DNA of 8,465 bases from a virus. Lineage: Duplodnaviria; Heunggongvirae; Uroviricota; Caudoviricetes. Position numbers and translations under genes: made by a program. The stretch lies in the IMG/VR virus record IMGVR_UViG_2671180454_000010; one strand, 5' to 3'. Below, piece after piece: positions 1,687 to 7,782 of the stretch. How positions within the stretch are numbered: position 1 is the first letter of the stretch; every line of letters starts with the position of its first letter. The notes beneath the pieces are model-generated. The model was given only the letters and a program-made list of their open reading frames with translations, was not told where the DNA came from and did not search any database.

Positions 1687-2397
1687 TCAAACAGCCTTGC
1701 TATACTTCTGAGAAATCTTCGTTAACTGCTCAATATCAGCCATCAAAGCAATCTTCTTCTGCGACTCATATTCACTAACAAGTTCTTTCATAGTATCAAG
1801 TTCTTTTTTAAGCTTTTGCTTTAACTTATCCAGTTTACCGGAATAATGCTTAGTCAAATTAGCTTCAGCTAACTGAAGAATCTCTTCATCTGTTTTATCA
1901 GTCATCAGAATAAATTGACCAGAACCCCTTAATGCTTGTCTGACATCAATTAACCGGAACCCTTCAGGGATACTTTGAAGAACTTTAGGAACGTCTTCAA
2001 TCGCTGTACCAAAACCATCATTAAAGTTTCCTTCATAATAGATAAACGGGTTTGACTTAATCTCGTAAGCAATATCATATTCTGAAGGTTTCGAGGTTTC
2101 TTCGAAGTTCTTAACAGCATCGTAAGCGACATCAAGTCTAAGACGCTGTGATTTTAAAGCTGGGTAATATTCACGCTCAAGCTCAAATAGTGCTTCAGTT
2201 TTGCAGATATCAGGCATTTCTTGAGGCTCAGGAGACACAAAGGAAATTACCTTTGGTGACATCTTTAGCTCTTGCTCAAGCTCAATGCGCTTGTCATGCT
2301 CTTGACGCTGAATAGTATGTAGCGGATGTTCACCCTGTGGTGACCAGTCTCCGAAGCTATCAACCTTTTTACCGTTAATATATAAATCGTTTGTCAT
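1687..2397 (-). CDS. hypothetical acidic protein, 236 aa (paralog of 4041..4652)
   Basis: ATG at 2395-2397 with AGAGGAAA 7 nt upstream. Collinear homology to the 203-aa ORF: shared PEP motif, DG(F/W)G, then 13 residues to (I/L)PEG.R, then DK(S/T)..E(L/I)...A...L; coiled-coil-like Lys/Glu-rich C-terminus. Confidence 0.6.
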   Translation of the reverse strand: MTNDLYINGKKVDSFGDWSPQGEHPLHTIQRQEHDKRIELEQELKMSPKVISFVSPEPQEMPDICKTEALFELEREYYPALKSQRLRLDVAYDAVKNFEETSKPSEYDIAYEIKSNPFIYYEGNFNDGFGTAIEDVPKVLQSIPEGFRLIDVRQALRGSGQFILMTDKTDEEILQLAEANLTKHYSGKLDKLKQKLKKELDTMKELVSEYESQKKIALMADIEQLTKISQKYSKAV

Positions 2398-2424
2398 TAT
2401 AATTTCCTCTAAGTGTGGTTATTT

Positions 2425-2496
2425 CTTAATAGAGCACCTTCAACGCCAATACACTTAGAAGATGACTTAACGATTTATTAAAGATGCTCTATTAAG
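2425..2496 (-). promoter_or_regulatory. long-range inverted repeat in the leader of the 236-aa ORF
   Basis: Perfect 12-bp arms CTTAATAGAGCA (2425-2436) and TGCTCTATTAAG (2485-2496) separated by 48 bp, between the upstream hairpin and the ribosome-binding site. Confidence 0.3.
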
Positions 2497-2528
2497 AAAA
2501 GCCCTAAACATAATCTGTGAAGGGCTTT
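2497..2528 (-). terminator. GCCCU/AGGGC hairpin with U-tract (hairpin A, module 1)
   Basis: Stem GCCCT (2501-2505) / AGGGC (2521-2525), extendable to AAAGCCCT/AGGGCTTT; minus-strand transcript continues UUUUCUUAAU. Loop 15 nt. Near-identical to the hairpin at 4768-4791. Confidence 0.35.
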
Positions 2529-2633: not shown

Positions 2634-2745
2634 AAAGGATTCAATAATGAATGAACAAAGACTTTTTGAGATAGCCTCTCAGACCAACCTGAAAGGCTAG
2701 GACGAAAAGCATTGCACCTTTCCAACTCAGAATATCCATTCATCG
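2634..2745 (-). repeat. conserved non-coding element, copy 1 (candidate structured RNA or leader)
   Basis: 112 bp aligning to 4792..4905 with 4 substitutions and one 2-nt indel. The two copies do not share a reading frame across the indel, so the conservation is not protein-coding. Lies upstream of the 236-aa ORF. Confidence 0.7.
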
Positions 2746-2755
2746 CGCGGGCTAG

Positions 2756-2788
<33 letters not shown>

Positions 2789-2832
2789 ATGAGGTGTACT
2801 GGCAATAGCGGACACTACCATTTGTTCTTTTT

Positions 2833-3651
2833 TTAAGCAGCCATCTGATGATATTTTTCCCTGAAGGCTGCCGGGGAGATATTCCCCAGACGAGAGTGAC
2901 GACGCTGACGATTGTAGAAAATCTCAATGTATTCCCGTATTACTGAGATGGCTTCATCCCGGTTATTAAAACGATAGTGGCTCAGGCTCTCATTTTTCAG
3001 CGTTCCCCAGAAGCTTTCCATCGGAGCGTTGTCGTAACAGTTACCTTTACGCGACATTGATGTTTTCAGACCAGACTGCTCCTGTATGACCCGGTAATCG
3101 TATGCGCAGTACTGTGAACCTCGATCAGAGTGGTGGATTAGCCCGGCAGGTGGGCGCTGGCTCCTGAGCGCCATAAACAGGGCTTTACCTGTCAGCTCTT
3201 TTGTCATGCGCTCTCCCATGGCGTAGCCGACAATTTCGCACGTATAAACATCTTTGATGCCAGCGAGGTACAACCATCCCTCCTGTGTGGCAACATACGT
3301 CAGGTCCGCCACCCAGACCTGATTTGGTGCTGTAGGAGCGAACGTCTGGTTCAGCAGATTTGGCGCAACTGGCAGATTGTGGTTCGAGTTCGTAGTCGCT
3401 CTGAACTTGCGTTTCTGCTTACAGCGTAGCCTTAGCTCCTTACGAAGACGTGCCAGTCGGTCACGACCAACGATGATGCCATTCTCTGCCAGCTCCGTCT
3501 GGAGCCGCCGGGTTCCATATGTTTCGCGAGTGCGGATATGTGCCACCTTAATCTCCAGTTTTAGCCGCTCATCACTTTGTTTTCTGTCTGAGGGTTCATG
3601 CTGTACCCAGTTGTAATAACCGCTCCTGGATACACCAAATACCTGACACAT
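2833..3651 (-). CDS. IS3-family transposase OrfB (catalytic DDE domain), expressed as OrfAB fusion
   Basis: 272 aa from the first ATG. The same frame is open upstream to the A7 slippery site and is -1 relative to orfA. Integrase-like catalytic region typical of IS3-family OrfB (…HSDRGSQYCAYDY…RKGNCYDNAPMESFWGTLK…). Confidence 0.85.
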   Translation of the reverse strand: MCQVFGVSRSGYYNWVQHEPSDRKQSDERLKLEIKVAHIRTRETYGTRRLQTELAENGIIVGRDRLARLRKELRLRCKQKRKFRATTNSNHNLPVAPNLLNQTFAPTAPNQVWVADLTYVATQEGWLYLAGIKDVYTCEIVGYAMGERMTKELTGKALFMALRSQRPPAGLIHHSDRGSQYCAYDYRVIQEQSGLKTSMSRKGNCYDNAPMESFWGTLKNESLSHYRFNNRDEAISVIREYIEIFYNRQRRHSRLGNISPAAFREKYHQMAA

Positions 3652-3686
3652 CGCTTCAATGGGAAATTGTTGTCGCCATTGTTCGA

Positions 3687-3989
3687 TTAACGCGTATTTT
3701 TCAGCGACTCCTGTGCAAAATACGCTGTTGCTTTTTTTAATATATCTCGCTCAAGGCGAGCTTCATTTAACGCCTTACGCAGTTGCAGAATTTCAGATTC
3801 CAGTTCAGCCACCGTGCGGGAACCAGGAGTACCGAGCCCTTTTCTGGCGGCGGTAACCCATTGTCCTAAAGTGCCTTCAGGAAGAGATAATCGGGAAGCG
3901 CCTTCACTGATCGAAAGTTGATTTTCAGGAACCGTTCTGACAGCTTCGGCTTTGAACTCTTTAGAGTAACGTTGGGTTTTTCTGCTCAT
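3687..3989 (-). CDS. IS3-family transposase OrfA (HTH plus leucine-zipper-like region), 100 aa
   Basis: ATG at 3987-3989 with AGGAGC upstream. C-terminus (…ILQLRKALNEARLERDILKKATAYFAQE…) typical of IS3-family OrfA; ends just after the frameshift hairpin. Confidence 0.85.
   Translation of the reverse strand: MSRKTQRYSKEFKAEAVRTVPENQLSISEGASRLSLPEGTLGQWVTAARKGLGTPGSRTVAELESEILQLRKALNEARLERDILKKATAYFAQESLKNTR
3692..3739 (-). promoter_or_regulatory. programmed -1 ribosomal frameshift site of the IS (A7G slippery run plus downstream hairpin)
   Basis: Minus-strand TTA AAA AAA G (complement of T-run 3732-3738) in the orfA frame; slipping -1 reads …SNSVFCTGVAEKYALIEQWRQQFPIEAMCQVFG… into OrfB. A 9-bp stem GCGUAUUUU/AAAAUACGC (3692-3725) starts about 6 nt downstream. 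Confidence 0.6.
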
Positions 3990-4040
3990 TATTAGCTCCT
4001 TCTGATGCCATTCTATTTCAGGAAGGAGTGTCCGTTAAAC

Positions 4041-4652
4041 TCAGGCTACCTCACTAATCAGCTTAGCCAGTCTTGATTTCAGCAAATTAATCTCATTTTC
4101 TCTTGCTTTCATCAGTTTCTCTTTGGCAATTTCTTCAAGCTCAGCTTGTGATTTATCAGCAACAATTAGAGACAGTCGATGTGGTGCTCTGACAGCTCTT
4201 TCTGTACGAACAACTCTTTGACCTTCTGGTAAATCTGCAATCACTTTACCAATCTCTACAGGGTCATACCCCCAACCGTCACGGTCTAGTCGAGAGAAAT
4301 AAGCATAAGAATTGGTTTGAAGCTCCATCGAAATAACCATTTCGTCAATTTCGTCTTCAAGCTTGGACTGAATTTTCTCGTAAACACTTCTCATTGCTTC
4401 TTGAGAGTCTTTAATAGCTTGGAAATATCGGCGTTGTAGCTTCAACTTCAAATCAAGTTCACACCGTTCGTTCATAGAAAAATCAATTTCAACTCTTGGA
4501 ATCTCGAGTGGTTCTGGTGGAATATATGGACCTTTATTTACTTCGTGTGATTCCCGCCAAGCTCTATCAAAAGATTCACGCAAAGTTAATTCGTGAATAT
4601 CAAGTGCACTTGGTCTGTGTTCGATAAGCATTTCATGTTCATTTCTAATCAT
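4041..4652 (-). CDS. hypothetical acidic protein, 203 aa (paralog of 1687..2397); 3' end formed by the IS terminus
   Basis: ATG at 4650-4652 with AAGGGGTGA 5 nt upstream. Homologous to the 236-aa ORF (see above). The last 4 codons and the stop (4041-4053) lie inside the IS terminal inverted repeat, and the protein is about 30 residues shorter at the C-terminus than its paralog. Confidence 0.6.
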   Translation of the reverse strand: MIRNEHEMLIEHRPSALDIHELTLRESFDRAWRESHEVNKGPYIPPEPLEIPRVEIDFSMNERCELDLKLKLQRRYFQAIKDSQEAMRSVYEKIQSKLEDEIDEMVISMELQTNSYAYFSRLDRDGWGYDPVEIGKVIADLPEGQRVVRTERAVRAPHRLSLIVADKSQAELEEIAKEKLMKARENEINLLKSRLAKLISEVA

Positions 4653-4691
4653 TCGTTCACCCCTTAGTTTATTTGTTATTTCAATTTATAG

Positions 4692-4752
4692 AAGCACACT
4701 CAGCAATCAGAGGTGAAGAGTCTGACTGAACAAGAACCTGCCAAGTGTGCTT
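4692..4752 (-). promoter_or_regulatory. long-range inverted repeat in the leader of the 203-aa ORF
   Basis: Perfect 9-bp arms AAGCACACT (4692-4700) and AGTGTGCTT (4744-4752) separated by 43 bp; same position and geometry as the 2425..2496 repeat but unrelated sequence. Confidence 0.3.
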
Positions 4753-4791
4753 TTAAAAACTGAAAAAGCCCTAAACATTTCTGTGAAGGGC
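4751..4791 (-). terminator. GCCCU/AGGGC hairpin with U-tract (module 2)
   Basis: Stem GCCCT (4768-4772) / AGGGC (4787-4791), 14-nt loop; minus-strand transcript continues UUUUUCAGUUUUUAAAA. Directly abuts the conserved core. Confidence 0.4.
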
Positions 4792-4905
4792 AAAGGATTC
4801 AATAATGAATGAACAAGAGTACTTTTTGAGATAGCCTCTCAGACTAACCTGAAAGGCCATGACGAAAAGCATTGCACCTTTCCAACTCAGAATATCCATC
4901 CATCG
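4792..4905 (-). repeat. conserved non-coding element, copy 2 (candidate structured RNA or leader)
   Basis: 114 bp, about 95% identical by eye to 2634..2745; upstream of the 203-aa ORF. Predicted terminal helix 5'-GAUGGAUGGAUA (4904-4893) with UGUUCAUUCAUU-3' (4815-4804), plus internal hairpins GAAAGG/CCUUUC and GAGA/UCUC. Confidence 0.7.
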
Positions 4906-4910
4906 GATTA

Positions 4911-4942
4911 TTGAAAGAAAAATAAGAGAGAATTGCTCTCCC
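4911..4942 (-). terminator. hairpin GAGAG-CAAUU-CUCUC with U-rich tail
   Basis: Stem 4926-4930 / 4936-4940; the minus-strand transcript continues UUAUUUUUCUUUC. Could terminate the upstream 107-aa ORF transcript or be the first structure of the element's own transcript. Confidence 0.35.
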
Positions 4943-4951
4943 ATAATTAAA

Positions 4952-4980
4952 ATTATGCCATGCTTAAGGTTATTTGTCAA
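4952..4980 (-). promoter_or_regulatory. candidate sigma70 promoter facing the copy-2 element
   Basis: Minus strand TTGACA (4980-4975), 17-nt spacer, CATAAT (4957-4952): 11 of 12 consensus positions. Predicted start near 4945. Confidence 0.35.
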
Positions 4981-5081
4981 CAGCTTTTTAACAGGTTGAT
5001 AACATCAATTCTTATTTACCGCATTGTTAATAATACAACCAACAAATAAGCCAAGCAACGTCCAAGCAATTATTAAACCCA

Positions 5082-5405
5082 TTAGTGAACCCTCACAGAA
5101 TCCGTCACCAGAATATTATCACTGTACAGGATTGTCACAGCACCTTTCAAAAATTGCTCTGGGGAAATACTGTATATGTTCGTTTGCTCGATAACCAATC
5201 TTTTCATGTTGCTGTCTGTAATTGGTAGCATCATTCGAGGCTCGTTAAACTCCACCGACTGAATAAAGTCAGAGATGTTTTCTACATTATCAGCCATCAG
5301 CTTTAGTAATTTATCAAAATTAATTGCGATACCTGCATCAATGAAGCTTTGCACCATCATAGCAGTGTCGTTATCAACCATAATTTGCATTGGGTAATTA
5401 TTCAT
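5082..5405 (-). CDS. hypothetical protein, 107 aa
   Basis: ATG at 5403-5405 with AGGAG 8 nt upstream. The longer ORF to 5528 would start at TTG with no ribosome-binding site and would span leader hairpins, so the internal ATG is preferred. Confidence 0.55.
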   Translation of the reverse strand: MNNYPMQIMVDNDTAMMVQSFIDAGIAINFDKLLKLMADNVENISDFIQSVEFNEPRMMLPITDSNMKRLVIEQTNIYSISPEQFLKGAVTILYSDNILVTDSVRVH

Positions 5406-5572
5406 TTTTAAATCTCCTATGAAACACACCTCAGACCTCTTAAAATAGCCATTCTGAGGCCAGTAACCATGCGGGTTACAGAGGGAGTTGCACTGGCTGG
5501 TAAGGTAATTTATCAAATTAAGGTGCAACTCTGCCTGTAAAGTGCATTCTACCGTTTCTTAGATGGTTATTT

Positions 5573-5992
5573 TTAATTGTCTTTATTAATCAATGGCTTA
5601 ATGTAGAAATACTGTCTCCGTGAAATACCATATTTTTCTGTAATGTATCGCTGAGATTGACCAGCATTTATGGCCTGAGTGATATCATCACGGTTATAGC
5701 GGTTACCACGGGATTTATATTTGTCACCATCCACATCTTCTGAGGTATTGAAGTCTTCAATCAGCTTAATTGCATCGTGAAGGTCATCTTCTGAGGCATA
5801 ATCGAAGGTATGGATAATCTCAAAATCACCAGTATCTGCTGGTGCATTCTTCCATCTGGAGAAGCGGGATTTTAATTGCTGGTGTGTGAAGGGTTCAGCA
5901 TTACGAGTTAAATCTTTCCATGTTCCGTTATTCTCACGGACAAGGTGACCTCTATGGCGATAAAACGCATGATAATCAAATGTGCATAGCAT
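5573..5992 (-). CDS. hypothetical protein with C-terminal HTH-like segment, 139 aa
   Basis: ATG at 5990-5992 overlaps the stop of the upstream RHH ORF (TAATG). C-terminal …DDITQAINAGQSQRYITEKYGISRRQYFYIK… looks like a helix-turn-helix. Confidence 0.55.
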   Translation of the reverse strand: MLCTFDYHAFYRHRGHLVRENNGTWKDLTRNAEPFTHQQLKSRFSRWKNAPADTGDFEIIHTFDYASEDDLHDAIKLIEDFNTSEDVDGDKYKSRGNRYNRDDITQAINAGQSQRYITEKYGISRRQYFYIKPLINKDN

Positions 5993-6282
5993 TAAACCCC
6001 CAGCTTATCCGCCAGTTGATGAACCTTGGCACTCAACACCTGAATCATTGAGCAACCTGCCACTGCGGACTGTGCTTTGAGTAGTTCCAGTTGGCCCGTT
6101 GTGATTCTGATGGCCTTAGAACCCTCTGCAACGCCCTTGATAGCGTCAAACGGTGTAAGGGCTATGTGTTCCTTCAAAATCTCACCAACAAGTGCTGTGT
6201 GGCTCATGGCTGGGTATTTGTCTTTGATTGCTGCCAGTCTGGAATATGCCTCTGGCAAAAGGCGTGTAACTGTGTGTCTCAT
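5992..6282 (-). CDS. ribbon-helix-helix-like DNA-binding protein (apparent tandem RHH), 96 aa
   Basis: ATG at 6280-6282 with AAGGAAAA upstream. Two strand-helix-helix-like halves (TVTRLLPEAYSRLAAIKDKY… and IRITTGQLELLKAQSAVAG…). First gene of a minus-strand operon leaving a divergent promoter region. Confidence 0.5.
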   Translation of the reverse strand: MRHTVTRLLPEAYSRLAAIKDKYPAMSHTALVGEILKEHIALTPFDAIKGVAEGSKAIRITTGQLELLKAQSAVAGCSMIQVLSAKVHQLADKLGV

Positions 6283-6340
6283 TAAATTTTCCTTCTTAAA
6301 ATCTTTGACTTATAACTAACTTTAACATATTTATAACATA

Positions 6341-6369
6341 TTGTCAACAACTCATTTACATGTTAATAT
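6341..6369 (+). promoter_or_regulatory. candidate sigma70 promoter for the 61-aa ORF, in a back-to-back promoter region
   Basis: TTGTCA (6341-6346), 17-nt spacer, TAATAT (6364-6369). The complementary strand reads TTGACA at 6347-6342, a perfect -35 for the divergent RHH operon. Direct repeats TAACATATT at 6323-6331 and 6334-6342. Confidence 0.45.
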
Positions 6370-7366: not shown

Positions 7367-7379
7367 ACTCTAACACGGG

Positions 7380-7437
7380 TGACATTTTGTCACTACCCCC
7401 ATGACATTTTGTCACTGGTAGTGGTGTCATTTTGTCT
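7380..7437 (-). promoter_or_regulatory. cluster of three TGACA-N3-TGTCA inverted-repeat sites (operator or iteron-like)
   Basis: TGACAtttTGTCA at 7380-7392 and 7402-7414, degenerate TGTCAtttTGTCT at 7425-7437; centre spacing 22-23 bp. Flanking inverted repeat CACTACC (7391-7397) / GGTAGTG (7417-7423). Overlaps the stop codon of the adjacent HTH gene. Confidence 0.55.
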
Positions 7438-7782
7438 TACTGAGGCTGCAACTTCCTGTGATGTAGGTCTTACAAGTAATTCCGGCTTATCATCCAGTGT
7501 GAATACACGATAAGTGCTTTGACGCCCCTGATTCTTTTGCACCTGAATTAAACCGTGTTTCTCAAGTGTCTCAATGGCTCTGATTGCTGTTCTCTTTGAT
7601 ACACCAGCCATATAAGCGAGATGGTCAATACTTGGTGAATATGATTTGTATTTCTCTTCATAGAAGTCACAGCTATGGACCATGACCATATAAATCAATC
7701 TTGCTGCTGCGTTAATTTCTTCTGAAAGTTGAGAGATTCGCACATCAAATTTATAAAACTGATTTGGGTTATATTTAGACAT
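7393..7782 (-). CDS. winged-helix/HTH DNA-binding protein, 129 aa
   Basis: ATG at 7780-7782 with GAGGTAA upstream. …LAYMAGVSKRTAIRAIETLEKHGLIQVQKNQGRQSTYRV… reads as helix-turn-helix plus wing. Family not identifiable by eye; could be a repressor or a replication-initiator N-domain. Confidence 0.6.
   Translation of the reverse strand: MSKYNPNQFYKFDVRISQLSEEINAAARLIYMVMVHSCDFYEEKYKSYSPSIDHLAYMAGVSKRTAIRAIETLEKHGLIQVQKNQGRQSTYRVFTLDDKPELLVRPTSQEVAASVRQNDTTTSDKMSWG

What the first reader, a model, noticed from the sequence alone, without database searches (positions are those of the whole stretch)
4911..4980. Near-consensus promoter immediately upstream of the copy-2 element, followed at about +10 by a hairpin with U-tract
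TTGACA-17-CATAAT on the minus strand (4980-4952) would start transcription near 4945, directly into the GAGAG/CUCUC hairpin and U-rich run (4942-4911) and then the conserved core. That gives the element its own promoter and suggests it is transcribed as a unit, possibly with early pausing or termination as a control point. In module 1 the equivalent position is replaced by the IS end; it retains only a GC-rich hairpin (GCGCGG/CCGCGC, 2756-2777) and traces of similarity.
Basis: seen in the sequence. Interest (0 to 1): 0.45.

Follow-up and report, generated by a model that had tools for sequence, protein, structure and literature searches.

The report
Conserved promoter of a structured leader RNA
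A very strong-looking, evolutionarily conserved bacterial promoter starts an unannotated, highly structured ~185-nt non-coding RNA that begins with a small protective hairpin and ends at terminators in front of the distal genes of a small phage-like island found in about 9% of E. coli genomes; the hairpin is real, but its U-run is not a conserved stop signal.

Summary
On the minus strand, TTGACA(4980-4975)-17 nt-CATAAT(4957-4952) with a TGn extended -10 is the best promoter match in the window; 0 of 200 shuffles give an equal match. The hairpin 4944-4922 with a U-run follows it.

Among 116 related loci, the -35 hexamer is intact in 114, the spacer is 17 nt in all 115 that keep a -35-like hexamer, and TG, -11A and -7T are invariant.

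The hairpin begins at about +1 to +4 of the RNA in most loci. It is kept by compensatory changes (97.9% of cells paired, 13 G-U against 0 A-C). Its U-run is present in only 45 of 95 loci, so a conserved early-termination checkpoint is not supported.

The promoter drives a non-coding, mosaic, structured RNA with no Rfam match. It holds an invariant 19-nt block and a 15-21 bp bipartite hairpin, and ends at 1-3 intrinsic terminators. A long hairpin carrying an anti-Shine-Dalgarno sequence then precedes a 233-246 aa gene. I read it as the terminated leader of the island's distal operon, comparable to lambdoid PR'-tR', put or canT. How read-through is triggered is unknown.

The parts
4981..5004 (-). 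Conserved A-rich stretch immediately upstream of -35 (CTGTTAAAAAGCTG), possibly an UP element or operator. It resembles the stretch upstream of a second promoter at 6347-6319.
   Evidence: The A-run is almost invariant in 116 loci. There is a 28-nt similarity to 6341-6368 (repeat D6). Its function is inferred.
4975..4980 (-). -35 hexamer TTGACA
   Evidence: Intact in 114 of 116 homologous loci. One locus has TTGATA, and the other is window copy 1, which has lost the region.
4952..4960 (-). Extended -10: TG (4960-4959), G, CATAAT (4957-4952)
   Evidence: The hexamer is CATAAT in 96 loci, GATGAT in 16 and GAAGAT in 2. TG, -11A and -7T are invariant, and the spacer is 17 nt in all 115 loci that keep a -35-like hexamer.
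4943..4946 (-). Predicted transcription start, most likely A4944 or T4945, 7-8 nt after the -10 hexamer
   Evidence: Inferred from sigma-70 promoter geometry. It has not been mapped.
4922..4944 (-). H1, the 5'-terminal hairpin AUGGGAGAG-CAAUU-CUCUCUUAU (core 4942-4926)
   Evidence: dG -8.5 kcal/mol. 97.9% of cells are paired, 4 of 7 pairs change on both sides, and there are 12 stem haplotypes with 13 G-U and 0 A-C. It starts 7-10 nt after the -10 hexamer in most loci.
4911..4925 (-). U-rich run after H1 (UUAUUUUUCUUUCAA)
   Evidence: Present here. A T-rich tail is present in only 45 of 95 related loci.
4891..4912 (-). H2 hairpin AAUAAUCC-GAUGGAU-GGAUAUU, whose loop holds a (GATG)n repeat
   Evidence: Read directly from the sequence. 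Alternative modules form equivalent hairpins (AACAAUUCC/GGGAUAGUU; AUCRUC/GAUGAU), and the repeat has 2-5 copies among loci. It was not tested column by column because the modules do not align.
4863..4881 (-). Invariant 19-nt block AAAGGUGCAAUGCUUUUCG
   Evidence: It was used as the search anchor. It is also exact in all 10 promoter-anchored island loci and in the 3 lowest-identity BLAST-selected E. coli loci.
4822..4869 (-). Core bipartite hairpin: basal helix CUUUUCG/CAAAAAG, internal loop, and upper helix AUGGCCUUUCAG/CUGAGAGGCUAU
   Evidence: All 32 sequence variants fold into the same shape with 15-21 bp, using at least 4 different apical stems. The lower helix is 99.2% paired, with GU26/GC24/AU3 and GC30/GU17/AU6 at two pairs. 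The covariance model finds one copy per island, scoring 78-91 bits on the sense strand and 15-31 bits antisense.
4798..4813 (-). H5, a small hairpin UUCA...UGAA whose loop holds a (CATT)n repeat
   Evidence: three of four pairs invariant. Support is weak.
4755..4791 (-). T1, an intrinsic terminator GCCCU...AGGGC followed by UUUUUCAGUUUUU. The predicted RNA 3' end is near 4763-4755, giving an RNA of about 182-190 nt.
   Evidence: dG -11.3 kcal/mol. 1-3 such terminator-like hairpins lie between the core and the downstream gene in all 107 loci examined.
4679..4765 (-). Long hairpin whose apical loop (CUCUUCACC) is complementary to the Shine-Dalgarno region (GGGGUGAA, about 4664-4657) of the 203-aa gene
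   Evidence: dG -32.1 kcal/mol, z -4.1 (inverted repeat I2). The anti-SD complementarity averages 9.4 nt against 5.7 nt in shuffles and is kept in three sequence classes.
4041..4652 (-). First gene of the distal operon (203 aa here). Its 3' end is cut by IS600, and intact relatives are 233-246 aa.
   Evidence: No Pfam, PHROG, NCBIfam or PADLOC match.
2790..4053 (-). IS600 (IS3 family)
   Evidence: Terminal repeats beginning TGAGGT at both ends. 99% identity to annotated IS600 copies.
2746..2789 (-).
   Evidence: 100% identical to ybaV over window 2740-2789. The joint with the core falls in CGATG(A/G)ATGG.
2634..2745 (-). Core copy 1: 5'-truncated and without promoter, H1 or the 5' arm of H2
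   Evidence: 95-100% identical to 4792-4905.

Best explanation
Positions 4980-4952 (minus strand) are a genuine, strong sigma-70 promoter of the extended -10 class. It lies inside a co-directional gene array of an ~11-kb phage-like integrative island that sits in yecE in E. coli.

The promoter starts a non-coding RNA near 4944. The first element of that RNA is a small hairpin (H1, 4944-4922) at the extreme 5' end. H1 is selected as an RNA structure. Its most likely role is to cap and stabilise the 5' end and help the leader fold in order. It is not a conserved early terminator, because the U-run behind it is a feature of only some sequence variants.

The RNA continues through a second hairpin, an invariant 19-nt block and a long bipartite hairpin. 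It ends at an intrinsic terminator (T1, 4791-4755) after about 185 nt, and relatives carry up to three terminators in a row.

Beyond the terminators lies a long hairpin that masks the ribosome-binding site of the first distal gene. The mRNA of that gene must therefore begin upstream of the terminators.

The promoter, leader and terminators together work as a gate. In the resting state a short terminated RNA is made and the distal operon is silent. That operon comprises the 233-246 aa protein, small proteins, a tape-measure-like protein and a baseplate-like protein. Its expression needs terminator read-through, as at lambdoid PR'-tR' or downstream of put/canT RNAs.

Shown: promoter conservation, RNA-level structure, non-coding nature, the terminators, the anti-SD complementarity, and the absence of another sigma-70-like promoter. 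Inferred: the transcription start, the stabiliser role of H1, the existence of read-through control, and what triggers it.
For: Promoter:
- It is the best site in the window, and 0 of 200 shuffles match it.
- In 116 core-anchored loci, -35 is intact in 114, the spacer is 17 nt wherever a -35-like hexamer is kept (115 loci), and TG, -11A and -7T are invariant.
- Spacer positions and -10 positions 1 and 4 do vary.

H1:
- 97.9% of cells are paired, against 32-60% when the partners are slid.
- 4 of 7 pairs change on both sides.
- Twelve stem haplotypes carry 13 G-U and 0 A-C, which indicates RNA on this strand.
- It starts 7-10 nt after the -10 hexamer in most loci. Variants that carry an extra hairpin also start with a hairpin.
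- The U-run is present in only 45 of 95 loci.

Leader:
- All 32 core variants fold into the same 15-21 bp bipartite hairpin.
- The 19-nt block is exact even in loci chosen without using it.
- The 4-nt repeat copy number varies and a 28-nt insertion is optional, so the frame is not kept and the RNA is non-coding.
- No Rfam family comes near its threshold.

Gate:
- 1-3 terminator-like hairpins are present in all 107 loci.
- No promoter-like site lies between T1 and the gene.
- Anti-SD complementarity is kept in three sequence classes, 9.4 nt against 5.7 nt in shuffles.

Context: the island carries a serine recombinase, an O-like initiator with iterons, and tape-measure and baseplate genes. It is present in 473 of 5426 complete E. 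coli genomes, with nothing annotated under the RNA.

Precedents: a constitutive PR' terminated immediately downstream yields a short RNA (PMC7547250); putL lies just downstream of PL (PMC9378689); canT is a cis-acting RNA antiterminator in a mobile element (PMC11658703).
Against: - There is no transcript evidence of any kind. The start site, the 3' end and any read-through are predictions.
- No antiterminator was identified. Island proteins near the promoter match no Q, N or other known family. The 139-aa HTH protein gave no significant fold match.
- The family is narrow (Escherichia, Shigella, Citrobacter) and mosaic. The compensatory changes therefore trace back to a limited number of events.
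- Most loci were collected with the 19-nt block as bait.
- The covariation does not say what the structures do.
- About half the variants, including this window, do have a U-run after H1, so some early termination in those variants cannot be excluded.
- An activator-dependent promoter without a -35 element downstream of the terminators would not be seen by the scan. The anti-SD hairpin argues against one lying after it.
Confidence: 0.55

Rival explanations
1. The RNA is a stand-alone, trans-acting small RNA. The promoter and T1 define a complete ~185-nt gene whose product acts on other RNAs or proteins, for example on a helper phage or host target through the invariant 19-nt block. The distal genes are expressed independently. 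This can coexist with the gate model, as StxS does at PR'-tR'.
For: A strong promoter plus an intrinsic terminator define a discrete unit. The invariant block lies partly single-stranded or in a loop. The RNA sequence stays about 95% identical while the downstream proteins are only 25% identical. A short terminated RNA from a constitutive phage promoter can act as a regulator (PMC7547250).
Against: No complementary target was found in the window. Two or three terminators in tandem and the anti-SD hairpin immediately behind them fit a gate on downstream genes better. No separate promoter for the distal operon was found.
Confidence: 0.25
2. The hairpin with its U-run at about +3 to +33 is an early attenuator: most transcripts stop or pause there, and regulated release is the control point.
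For: The consensus scan calls it terminator-like in this window, with 9 pairs, 3 G-C pairs and a T-rich tail. 45 of 95 relatives also have a T-rich tail.
Against: The U-run is missing in 50 of 95 loci although the stem is kept. The stem is weak at -8.5 kcal/mol and is closed next to the U-run by A-U and G-U pairs. The conserved, stronger terminators lie 150 nt or more further down.
Confidence: 0.1
3. The conservation is at the DNA level. The palindromes would be operators for a repressor placed just after the start site, or a recombination or packaging site, rather than RNA structures.
For: H1 is a palindrome placed where operators such as lacO sit. A rearrangement joint (ybaV to core) falls inside the element at the GATG repeat. 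The leader is a hot spot of mosaic exchange.
Against: The mismatches are strand-asymmetric: 18 G-U against 1 A-C across the H1 and core stem haplotypes. Stem sequences are replaced wholesale while pairing is kept. The covariance model scores 78-91 bits on the sense strand and 15-31 bits antisense. The ybaV joint is unique to this window.
Confidence: 0.07
4. The promoter, RNA, terminator and gene form a type III-like toxin-antitoxin or other RNA-protein defence pair.
For: The order promoter, structured RNA, leaky terminator and then a ~200-240 aa protein is the same as in ToxIN-type loci (own knowledge of that family).
Against: There are no tandem repeats in the RNA. The protein matches no PADLOC or Pfam family. 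The RNA is nearly identical next to proteins that share only 25% identity, which is contrary to a co-evolving pair. The gene is the first of a five-gene operon.
Confidence: 0.03

Closest known systems
Lambdoid late promoter module PR'-qut-tR' (lambda 6S RNA; StxS of Stx phages)
   Same: A constitutive-looking strong promoter sits at the end of an upstream operon. A short RNA of about 190 nt is terminated immediately downstream, with late or structural genes behind the terminator. [quoted passage not shown]
   Different: There is no nucleotide similarity to any phage record. No Q-family protein is encoded nearby. Here the transcribed region is a conserved, co-varying RNA structure with an invariant block, which is not known for the lambda 6S region. 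One to three terminators are followed by an anti-SD hairpin.
HK022 put RNAs (putL/putR), cis-acting processive antitermination RNA
   Same: The structured RNA begins within a few nucleotides of the 5' end of a transcript from a strong early promoter, and terminators lie downstream. putL lies just downstream of PL, and its structure starts at A3 (PMC9378689).
   Different: put is about 70 nt with two long stem-loops and an RNA triplex, and occurs twice per genome. Here the leader is 180-310 nt, built of five or more hairpins, and occurs once per island. No sequence relation is evident. Binding to RNA polymerase is untested.
canT of Tn916 (cis-acting RNA antiterminator of a mobile element)
   Same: It is a mobile-element leader that must overcome internal terminators to express distal genes. 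[quoted passage not shown]
   Different: It comes from a Gram-positive conjugative element with unrelated sequence. Antitermination activity is not shown here.
5'-terminal stabiliser hairpins (for example the ompA 5' UTR; protection from RppH and RNase E 5'-end-dependent decay)
   Same: It is a short stem-loop starting within 1-4 nt of the 5' end, whose sequence is free to vary as long as pairing is kept. The comparison itself rests on my own knowledge.
   Different: No half-life data exist. In some variants a second hairpin precedes H1, and in about half a U-run follows it.
Satellite P4 immunity leader (CI RNA made from the constitutive PLE transcript; Rfam C4 family)
   Same: In a satellite-type element, a constitutive promoter makes a leader RNA that governs premature termination of its own operon (own knowledge).
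   Different: No match to the C4/CI family in Rfam. No seqA/seqB/seqC-type internal complementarity is conserved. The genes behind the gate are structural-type, not replication genes.

Membership tests
Sigma-70 promoter, extended -10 class | -35 TTGACA-like hexamer, 16-18 nt spacer, -10 hexamer with -11A and -7T, and TGn immediately upstream of -10 | tested here: met
   TTGACA-17-(TGG)CATAAT matches 13 of 14 specified bases, and 0 of 200 shuffles match as well.
Sigma-70 promoter, extended -10 class | The functional positions are conserved in relatives while neighbouring positions drift | tested here: met
   In 116 loci, -35 is intact in 114, and TG, -11A and -7T are invariant. The spacer and -10 positions 1 and 4 vary.
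Sigma-70 promoter, extended -10 class | A mapped transcription start 6-9 nt downstream of -10 | not testable with these tools
   No transcript data are available. The predicted start is 4944/4945.
Intrinsic (Rho-independent) terminator, applied to H1 plus its U-run | A G+C-rich stem directly followed by a U-tract | tested here: inconclusive
   The scan flags it in this window (9 pairs, 3 G-C). However, the stem is only -8.5 kcal/mol and is closed by A-U and G-U pairs next to the U-run.
Intrinsic (Rho-independent) terminator, applied to H1 plus its U-run | The stem and the U-tract are conserved together in relatives | tested here: not met
   The stem is kept (97.9% paired), but the T-rich tail is present in only 45 of 95 loci.
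Intrinsic terminator, applied to T1 (4791-4755) | A G+C-rich stem plus a U-tract, conserved in position | tested here: met
   GCCCU/AGGGC stem, -11.3 kcal/mol, followed by U5. 1-3 such hairpins occur in all 107 loci. Termination itself was not measured.
Any Rfam 15 family | Score at or above the family's gathering threshold | tested here: not met
   The best hits are microRNA-precursor models at 26-29 bits against thresholds of 90 or more.
HK022 put RNA | About 70 nt, two stem-loops, starting just after the promoter | tested here: inconclusive
   The structure does start at +1 to +4. However, the leader is 180-310 nt with five or more hairpins. The put features are taken from PMC9378689.
HK022 put RNA | Two related copies per genome, one downstream of each early promoter | tested here: not met
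   The covariance model of the core finds one copy per island and none after the promoter at 6347-6319.
HK022 put RNA | Protein-independent antitermination through the beta' zinc-binding domain | not testable with these tools
   This needs in vitro transcription or rpoC mutants.
Lambdoid Q/qut late control | A Q-family antiterminator gene upstream of the promoter | tested here: not met
   No Pfam, PHROG or NCBIfam match for the 96-, 139- or 148-aa proteins. The 139-aa model has no significant PDB fold match.
Lambdoid Q/qut late control | A constitutive promoter, a short terminated RNA, and late genes behind the terminator | tested here: met
   (architecture only).
Type III toxin-antitoxin (ToxIN-like) | An antitoxin RNA made of tandem direct repeats, and a toxin of the ToxN/AbiQ type | tested here: not met
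   No tandem repeats. No PADLOC or Pfam match for the downstream protein.
Protein-coding small ORF (69-aa ORF 4771-4980) | Reading frame preserved among relatives | tested here: not met
   The 4-nt repeat copy number varies (2-5 copies), a 28-nt insertion is optional, and whole modules are swapped. The ATG at 4944 is absent in many variants.

The most novel reading that the evidence does not exclude
The leader is a new class of cis-acting RNA that itself makes RNA polymerase terminator-resistant (put/canT-like), or that senses a helper-phage or island factor. It would act as the master switch for the distal operon of a previously undescribed family of ~11-kb phage-satellite-like islands carried by about 9% of E. 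coli. Those islands have a serine recombinase, an O-like replication module, and tape-measure and baseplate genes.
Probability: 0.2. Interest if true: 0.75.

Novelty: new member of a known kind. Interest (0 to 1): 0.5.

Why it matters
It would add an unannotated, widespread structured RNA to the E. coli/Shigella mobilome, with a clear transcription unit that can be tested directly. It would also give a handle on how an uncharacterised phage-like island keeps its distal, structural-type genes silent and turns them on. Only a few RNA-based or promoter-proximal antitermination switches are known (N/nut, Q/qut, put, EAR, canT), so a new one in E. coli would be easy to dissect genetically.

Tried and rejected
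**Database and homology searches**
- Rfam scans of the window and of a variant leader found nothing near threshold.
- Nucleotide search of phage and plasmid collections with the leader or the island found no match, apart from the IS end in Stx phages.
- I looked for more distant islands using the downstream protein profile. Only the same 13 viral contigs came back.
- A promoter-anchored scan gave three unrelated chance hits, L022-L024.
- Pfam, PHROG, NCBIfam, PADLOC and PDB sequence searches of neighbouring proteins gave only an O-like initiator and a tape-measure domain.
- The 139-aa protein was modelled with AlphaFold at pLDDT 69.5, showing a beta-sheet N-terminal domain and a C-terminal helix-turn-helix. 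Foldseek against PDB gave no hit better than E = 2.

**RNA-level ideas tested**
- A second, diverged copy of the core motif, in the manner of nutL/nutR or putL/putR, was not found.
- A target complementary to the invariant block was not found in the window.
- A long-range pairing of the (GGAU)n and (AUUC)n repeats was rejected, because the repeat numbers do not co-vary and the modules combine freely.
- An antiterminator that competes with T1 was not found in any conserved form.
- Similarity to boxA/boxB was noted by eye only and is too weak to claim.

**Other**
- Coding potential of the 69-aa ORF was rejected.
- Literature searches for the island returned nothing specific.
Full report
**1. The observation**

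On the minus strand the window reads TTGACA (4980-4975), then the 17-nt spacer AATAACCTTAAGCATGG, then CATAAT (4957-4952). The TG at 4960-4959 makes an extended -10. This is the best promoter-like site in the window at 11/12. Promoter-like sites in general are not enriched: 15 were found against 19.9 expected. This particular match is exceptional, though. TTGACA-N14-TGnTATAAT with at most one mismatch occurs once in the window and in none of 200 dinucleotide-preserving shuffles.

Seven to eight nucleotides after the -10 hexamer begins AUGGGAGAG-CAAUU-CUCUCUUAU (4944-4922), followed by UUUUCUUUC. It folds at -8.5 kcal/mol with z = -2.7.

**2. Where the window comes from**

The window belongs to a chromosomal island of about 11 kb. 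In E. coli 2011C-4315 the island interrupts yecE. It carries a large serine recombinase, a baseplate-like and a tape-measure-like gene, several small unknown genes, a helix-turn-helix replication-type protein and a Dam methylase.
- In the window, the protein at 7393-7782 matches O-like replication initiators. Three 14-nt iterons lie at 7378-7436.
- The leader region is present in 473 of 5426 complete E. coli genomes, always on the chromosome, with nothing annotated under it.
- Close relatives of neighbouring proteins occur in Shigella sonnei, S. flexneri and E. albertii. A diverged copy is in Citrobacter.

**3. The window is a rearranged copy**

The IS between the two "modules" is IS600, at 2790-4053, with terminal repeats starting TGAGGT. 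It cuts off the 3' end of the 203-aa gene, whose intact relatives are 233-246 aa.

On its other side IS600 is not followed by a degenerate copy of the promoter region. It is followed by a stretch that is 100% identical to the host core gene ybaV, a gene found in 5424 of 5426 genomes. The match covers 2740-2789. The three-way alignment shows ybaV identity running up to CGATGAATGG, after which the sequence continues as the conserved core ATATTCTGAGTTGG....
- The joint lies in the GATG repeat of the leader, a 9-10 nt microhomology.
- The GCGCGG/CCGCGC inverted repeat (2745-2766) is ybaV coding sequence (...AEELARAMNG).
- Its resemblance to the 5' hairpin is coincidental, and no other locus has this junction.
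- Copy 1 is therefore a promoterless, 5'-truncated remnant.
- An IMG/VR contig is identical to the window over 2788-6282 but differs on the far side of IS600.

**4. Is the promoter conserved?**

I used an invariant 19-mer from the core as bait, so the sampling was not biased towards the promoter. This collected loci from species genomes, viral contigs and metagenomes. Of these, 116 related loci had at least 150 nt of upstream sequence.
- The -35 hexamer is TTGACA in 114. One locus has TTGATA, and the other exception is window copy 1.
- The spacer is 17 nt in all 115 loci that keep a -35-like hexamer.
- The -10 hexamer is CATAAT in 96, GATGAT in 16 and GAAGAT in 2.
- Position by position, TG, -11A, position 5 and -7T never change. 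Spacer positions and -10 positions 1 and 4 do change.

The three lowest-identity hits from a BLAST of complete E. coli genomes, chosen without the bait, also carry the promoter and the exact 19-mer.

**5. The hairpin and its U-run**

In an alignment of 53 distinct leaders the seven H1 pairs are 97.9% paired, against 32-60% when the partners are slid by 1-3 columns. Four of the seven pairs have changes on both sides; examples are GC 24/GU 18/AU 11 and GC 41/AU 10/GU 2. The twelve distinct stem haplotypes contain 64 Watson-Crick pairs, 13 G-U pairs and no A-C pair. That asymmetry fits an RNA made from this strand rather than a DNA palindrome.

H1 starts 7-10 nt after the -10 hexamer in most loci, which is at about +1 to +4 of the transcript. 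In variants where H1 lies further in, another hairpin (GGAUAG-UCUU-CUAUCC) takes the 5'-terminal place.

The tail is another matter. A T-rich tail (at least 5 of 8) follows the stem in 45 of 95 loci. In the other 50 the stem is followed by AAAAUCAUAU..., GAAUUAAACU... and similar sequences. The stems are weak, at -4.5 to -9.9 kcal/mol.

H1 is therefore selected as a structure at the very 5' end of the RNA. The combination of hairpin plus U-run is not selected. From general knowledge of 5'-end-dependent decay, the most economical role is protection of the 5' end, perhaps together with ordered folding of the leader. That role is inferred, not shown. In variants such as this window, some early termination cannot be excluded.

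**6. What the promoter transcribes**

From the -10 hexamer to the first terminator the region is 189-318 nt, in 84 distinct versions. It is strikingly mosaic, with discrete alternative modules recombined in many combinations. The order of elements in the window is:
- H1 (4944-4922);
- H2 (4912-4891), whose loop holds a GATG repeat of 2-5 copies;
- in some loci, an extra 28-nt hairpin;
- the invariant block AAAGGUGCAAUGCUUUUCG (4881-4863);
- a bipartite hairpin (4869-4822);
- a small hairpin (4813-4798) whose loop holds a CATT repeat;
- terminator T1 (4791-4755; -11.3 kcal/mol; U5).

All 32 variants of the bipartite hairpin fold into the same shape with 15-21 pairs, although at least four unrelated apical stem sequences are used. 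Its lower helix is 99.2% paired, with GU/GC/AU exchanges. The CUUUUC of the invariant block can alternatively pair with the upstream GAAAGG. Because both partners are invariant, the comparison cannot decide between the two pairings.

The region is not coding. The 4-nt repeat numbers vary, the 28-nt insertion is optional, and the ATG at 4944 is absent in many variants. No Rfam family comes near its threshold. A covariance model of the core finds exactly one copy per island, scoring 78-91 bits on the sense strand against 15-31 bits antisense.

**7. What lies behind it**

In all 107 loci with a complete downstream gene, 1-3 terminator-like hairpins separate the core from a 233-246 aa gene. Copy 1 in the window has two of them, at -11.4 and -14.3 kcal/mol.

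After the last terminator comes a long, nearly perfect hairpin directly in front of the ribosome-binding site: -32.1 kcal/mol for copy 2 and -37.3 kcal/mol (z = -8) for copy 1. Its apical part is complementary to the Shine-Dalgarno region.
- The longest perfect complement to the 21 nt before the ATG averages 9.4 nt, against 5.7 nt for shuffled controls.
- Three unrelated sequence classes keep the complementarity: CCUCUUCUAAG/CUUAGAAGAGG, UCUAAGUGU/ACACUUAGA and UUCACCUCU/AGAGGUGAA.

The mRNA of the distal gene must therefore include that hairpin and must start upstream of it. In the window the hairpin begins inside the U-tract of T1, and the scan finds no promoter between T1 and the gene. Upstream, a conserved 25-codon hydrophobic ORF ends only about 25 nt before the -35 hexamer, with no terminator between. 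Transcripts from the promoter at 6347-6319 would therefore also run into T1.

**8. Mechanism**

The best-supported reading is a gate. A strong promoter at the end of the proximal operon makes a short, stable, structured RNA that stops at T1, with back-up terminators in relatives. The distal operon is reached only by read-through, and translation of its first gene is additionally masked.

[quoted passage not shown] Because the transcribed region is itself a conserved structure starting at the 5' end, it also resembles HK022 putL (PMC9378689) and Tn916 canT (PMC11658703).

I could not find the trigger. No Q, N or other known regulator family is encoded nearby. The 139-aa protein has a C-terminal helix-turn-helix but no significant fold match. 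The first gene after the 6347 promoter looks by eye like a tandem ribbon-helix-helix protein. The two promoters share about 28 nt upstream of and including -35, which could be a common operator or an UP element.

The rivals, in order, are:
- a trans-acting sRNA, which is compatible with the gate model, as StxS is;
- a DNA-level site;
- a type III-like toxin-antitoxin pair;
- a small protein-coding ORF.

**9. Limits**

- Nothing here is transcript evidence.
- Most loci were collected with the 19-mer as bait, although the promoter-anchored and BLAST-anchored controls agree with them.
- The family is narrow and recombining, so the compensatory changes represent a modest number of independent events. 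The shuffle controls overstate significance for related sequences.
- H2 and the terminators could not be scored column by column, because alternative modules do not align.

**10. Verdict**

The promoter and a transcribed structured unit are well supported. The early-termination idea is not conserved. The module-1 remark is wrong.

The element is an unannotated leader or small RNA of a known general kind, sitting in an uncharacterised and fairly common E. coli island. Interest is moderate. It would be considerably higher if the leader proves to be a self-acting or helper-sensing antitermination RNA.

Noticed in passing
window 2740-2789 (minus strand; joint at about 2737-2746): A 44-50 nt fragment of the host core gene ybaV (comEA-like helix-hairpin-helix protein) lies between IS600 and the truncated core copy 1. 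It is joined to the core through a CGATG(A/G)ATGG microhomology inside the leader's GATG repeat. This junction was seen in no other locus.
   Followed up: yes
window 2790-4053: IS600 (IS3 family) truncates the 3' end of the 203-aa gene, whose intact relatives are 233-246 aa. An IMG/VR contig is identical to the window over 2788-6282 but differs on the far side of the IS, so the sequence to the left of the IS may reflect a rearrangement or an assembly join at a repeated IS.
   Followed up: partly
window 5005-5082 (minus strand): An unannotated 25-codon hydrophobic ORF (MGLIIAWTLLGLFVGCIINNAVNKN). Its ATG overlaps the stop of the upstream gene (TAATG), and it ends about 25 nt before the -35 hexamer. 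It is conserved in relatives with synonymous changes (MTLIVLWTLLGLFVGCIINDAINKN; MTLVILWTALGLLCGCLIASEANRN). It is probably a real small membrane peptide.
   Followed up: partly
window 4679-4765 and 2422-2499 (minus strand): Long near-perfect hairpins (-32 and -37 kcal/mol) lie directly upstream of the ribosome-binding sites of the 203-aa and 236-aa genes. Their apical part is complementary to the Shine-Dalgarno region. Three unrelated sequence classes keep this complementarity (9.4 nt on average against 5.7 nt in shuffles). This suggests translational masking, an RNase III site, or both.
   Followed up: partly
window 4897-4904 and 4801-4810 (minus strand); related loci: Two tetranucleotide repeats inside the leader vary in copy number among loci: (GATG)n with 2-5 copies in the loop of H2, and (CATT)n after the core hairpin. 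Their copy numbers do not co-vary.
   Followed up: partly
window 6319-6347 (minus strand) and 6341-6369 (plus strand): A second strong promoter-like site (TTGACA-17-TAAAGT with TGn) lies in front of the 96-aa gene. It is overlapped back-to-back by a plus-strand site (TTGTCA-17-TAATAT). Its upstream 28 nt resemble those of the promoter at 4980, which could reflect a common operator or an UP element. The 96-aa protein looks by eye like a tandem ribbon-helix-helix repressor.
   Followed up: partly
window 7378-7436: Three 14-nt direct repeats (GGTGACATTTTGTC) spaced 22-23 nt apart lie at the 3' end of the O-like or DnaD-like initiator gene (7393-7782). They are probably origin iterons. In L001 the equivalent gene is one 306-aa ORF, whereas the window has two ORFs (129 aa and 124 aa).
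   Followed up: no
window 1687-2397; proteins P0011-P0130: The 236-aa protein family (over 3000 database relatives, in E. coli, Shigella and Salmonella) is named 'transposase' in NCBI records. It has no Pfam, PHROG, NCBIfam or PADLOC match, so the name looks unfounded.
   Followed up: partly
L001 9621-20985 (E. coli 2011C-4315): The whole ~11-kb island comprises a serine recombinase, baseplate-like and tape-measure-like genes, the leader, small ORFs, an initiator and a Dam methylase. It is inserted in yecE right next to a lambdoid prophage that uses the same gene. It has no capsid or terminase genes, so it may be a phage satellite or a tail-interfering element. I found no description of it in the literature searched.
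   Followed up: partly
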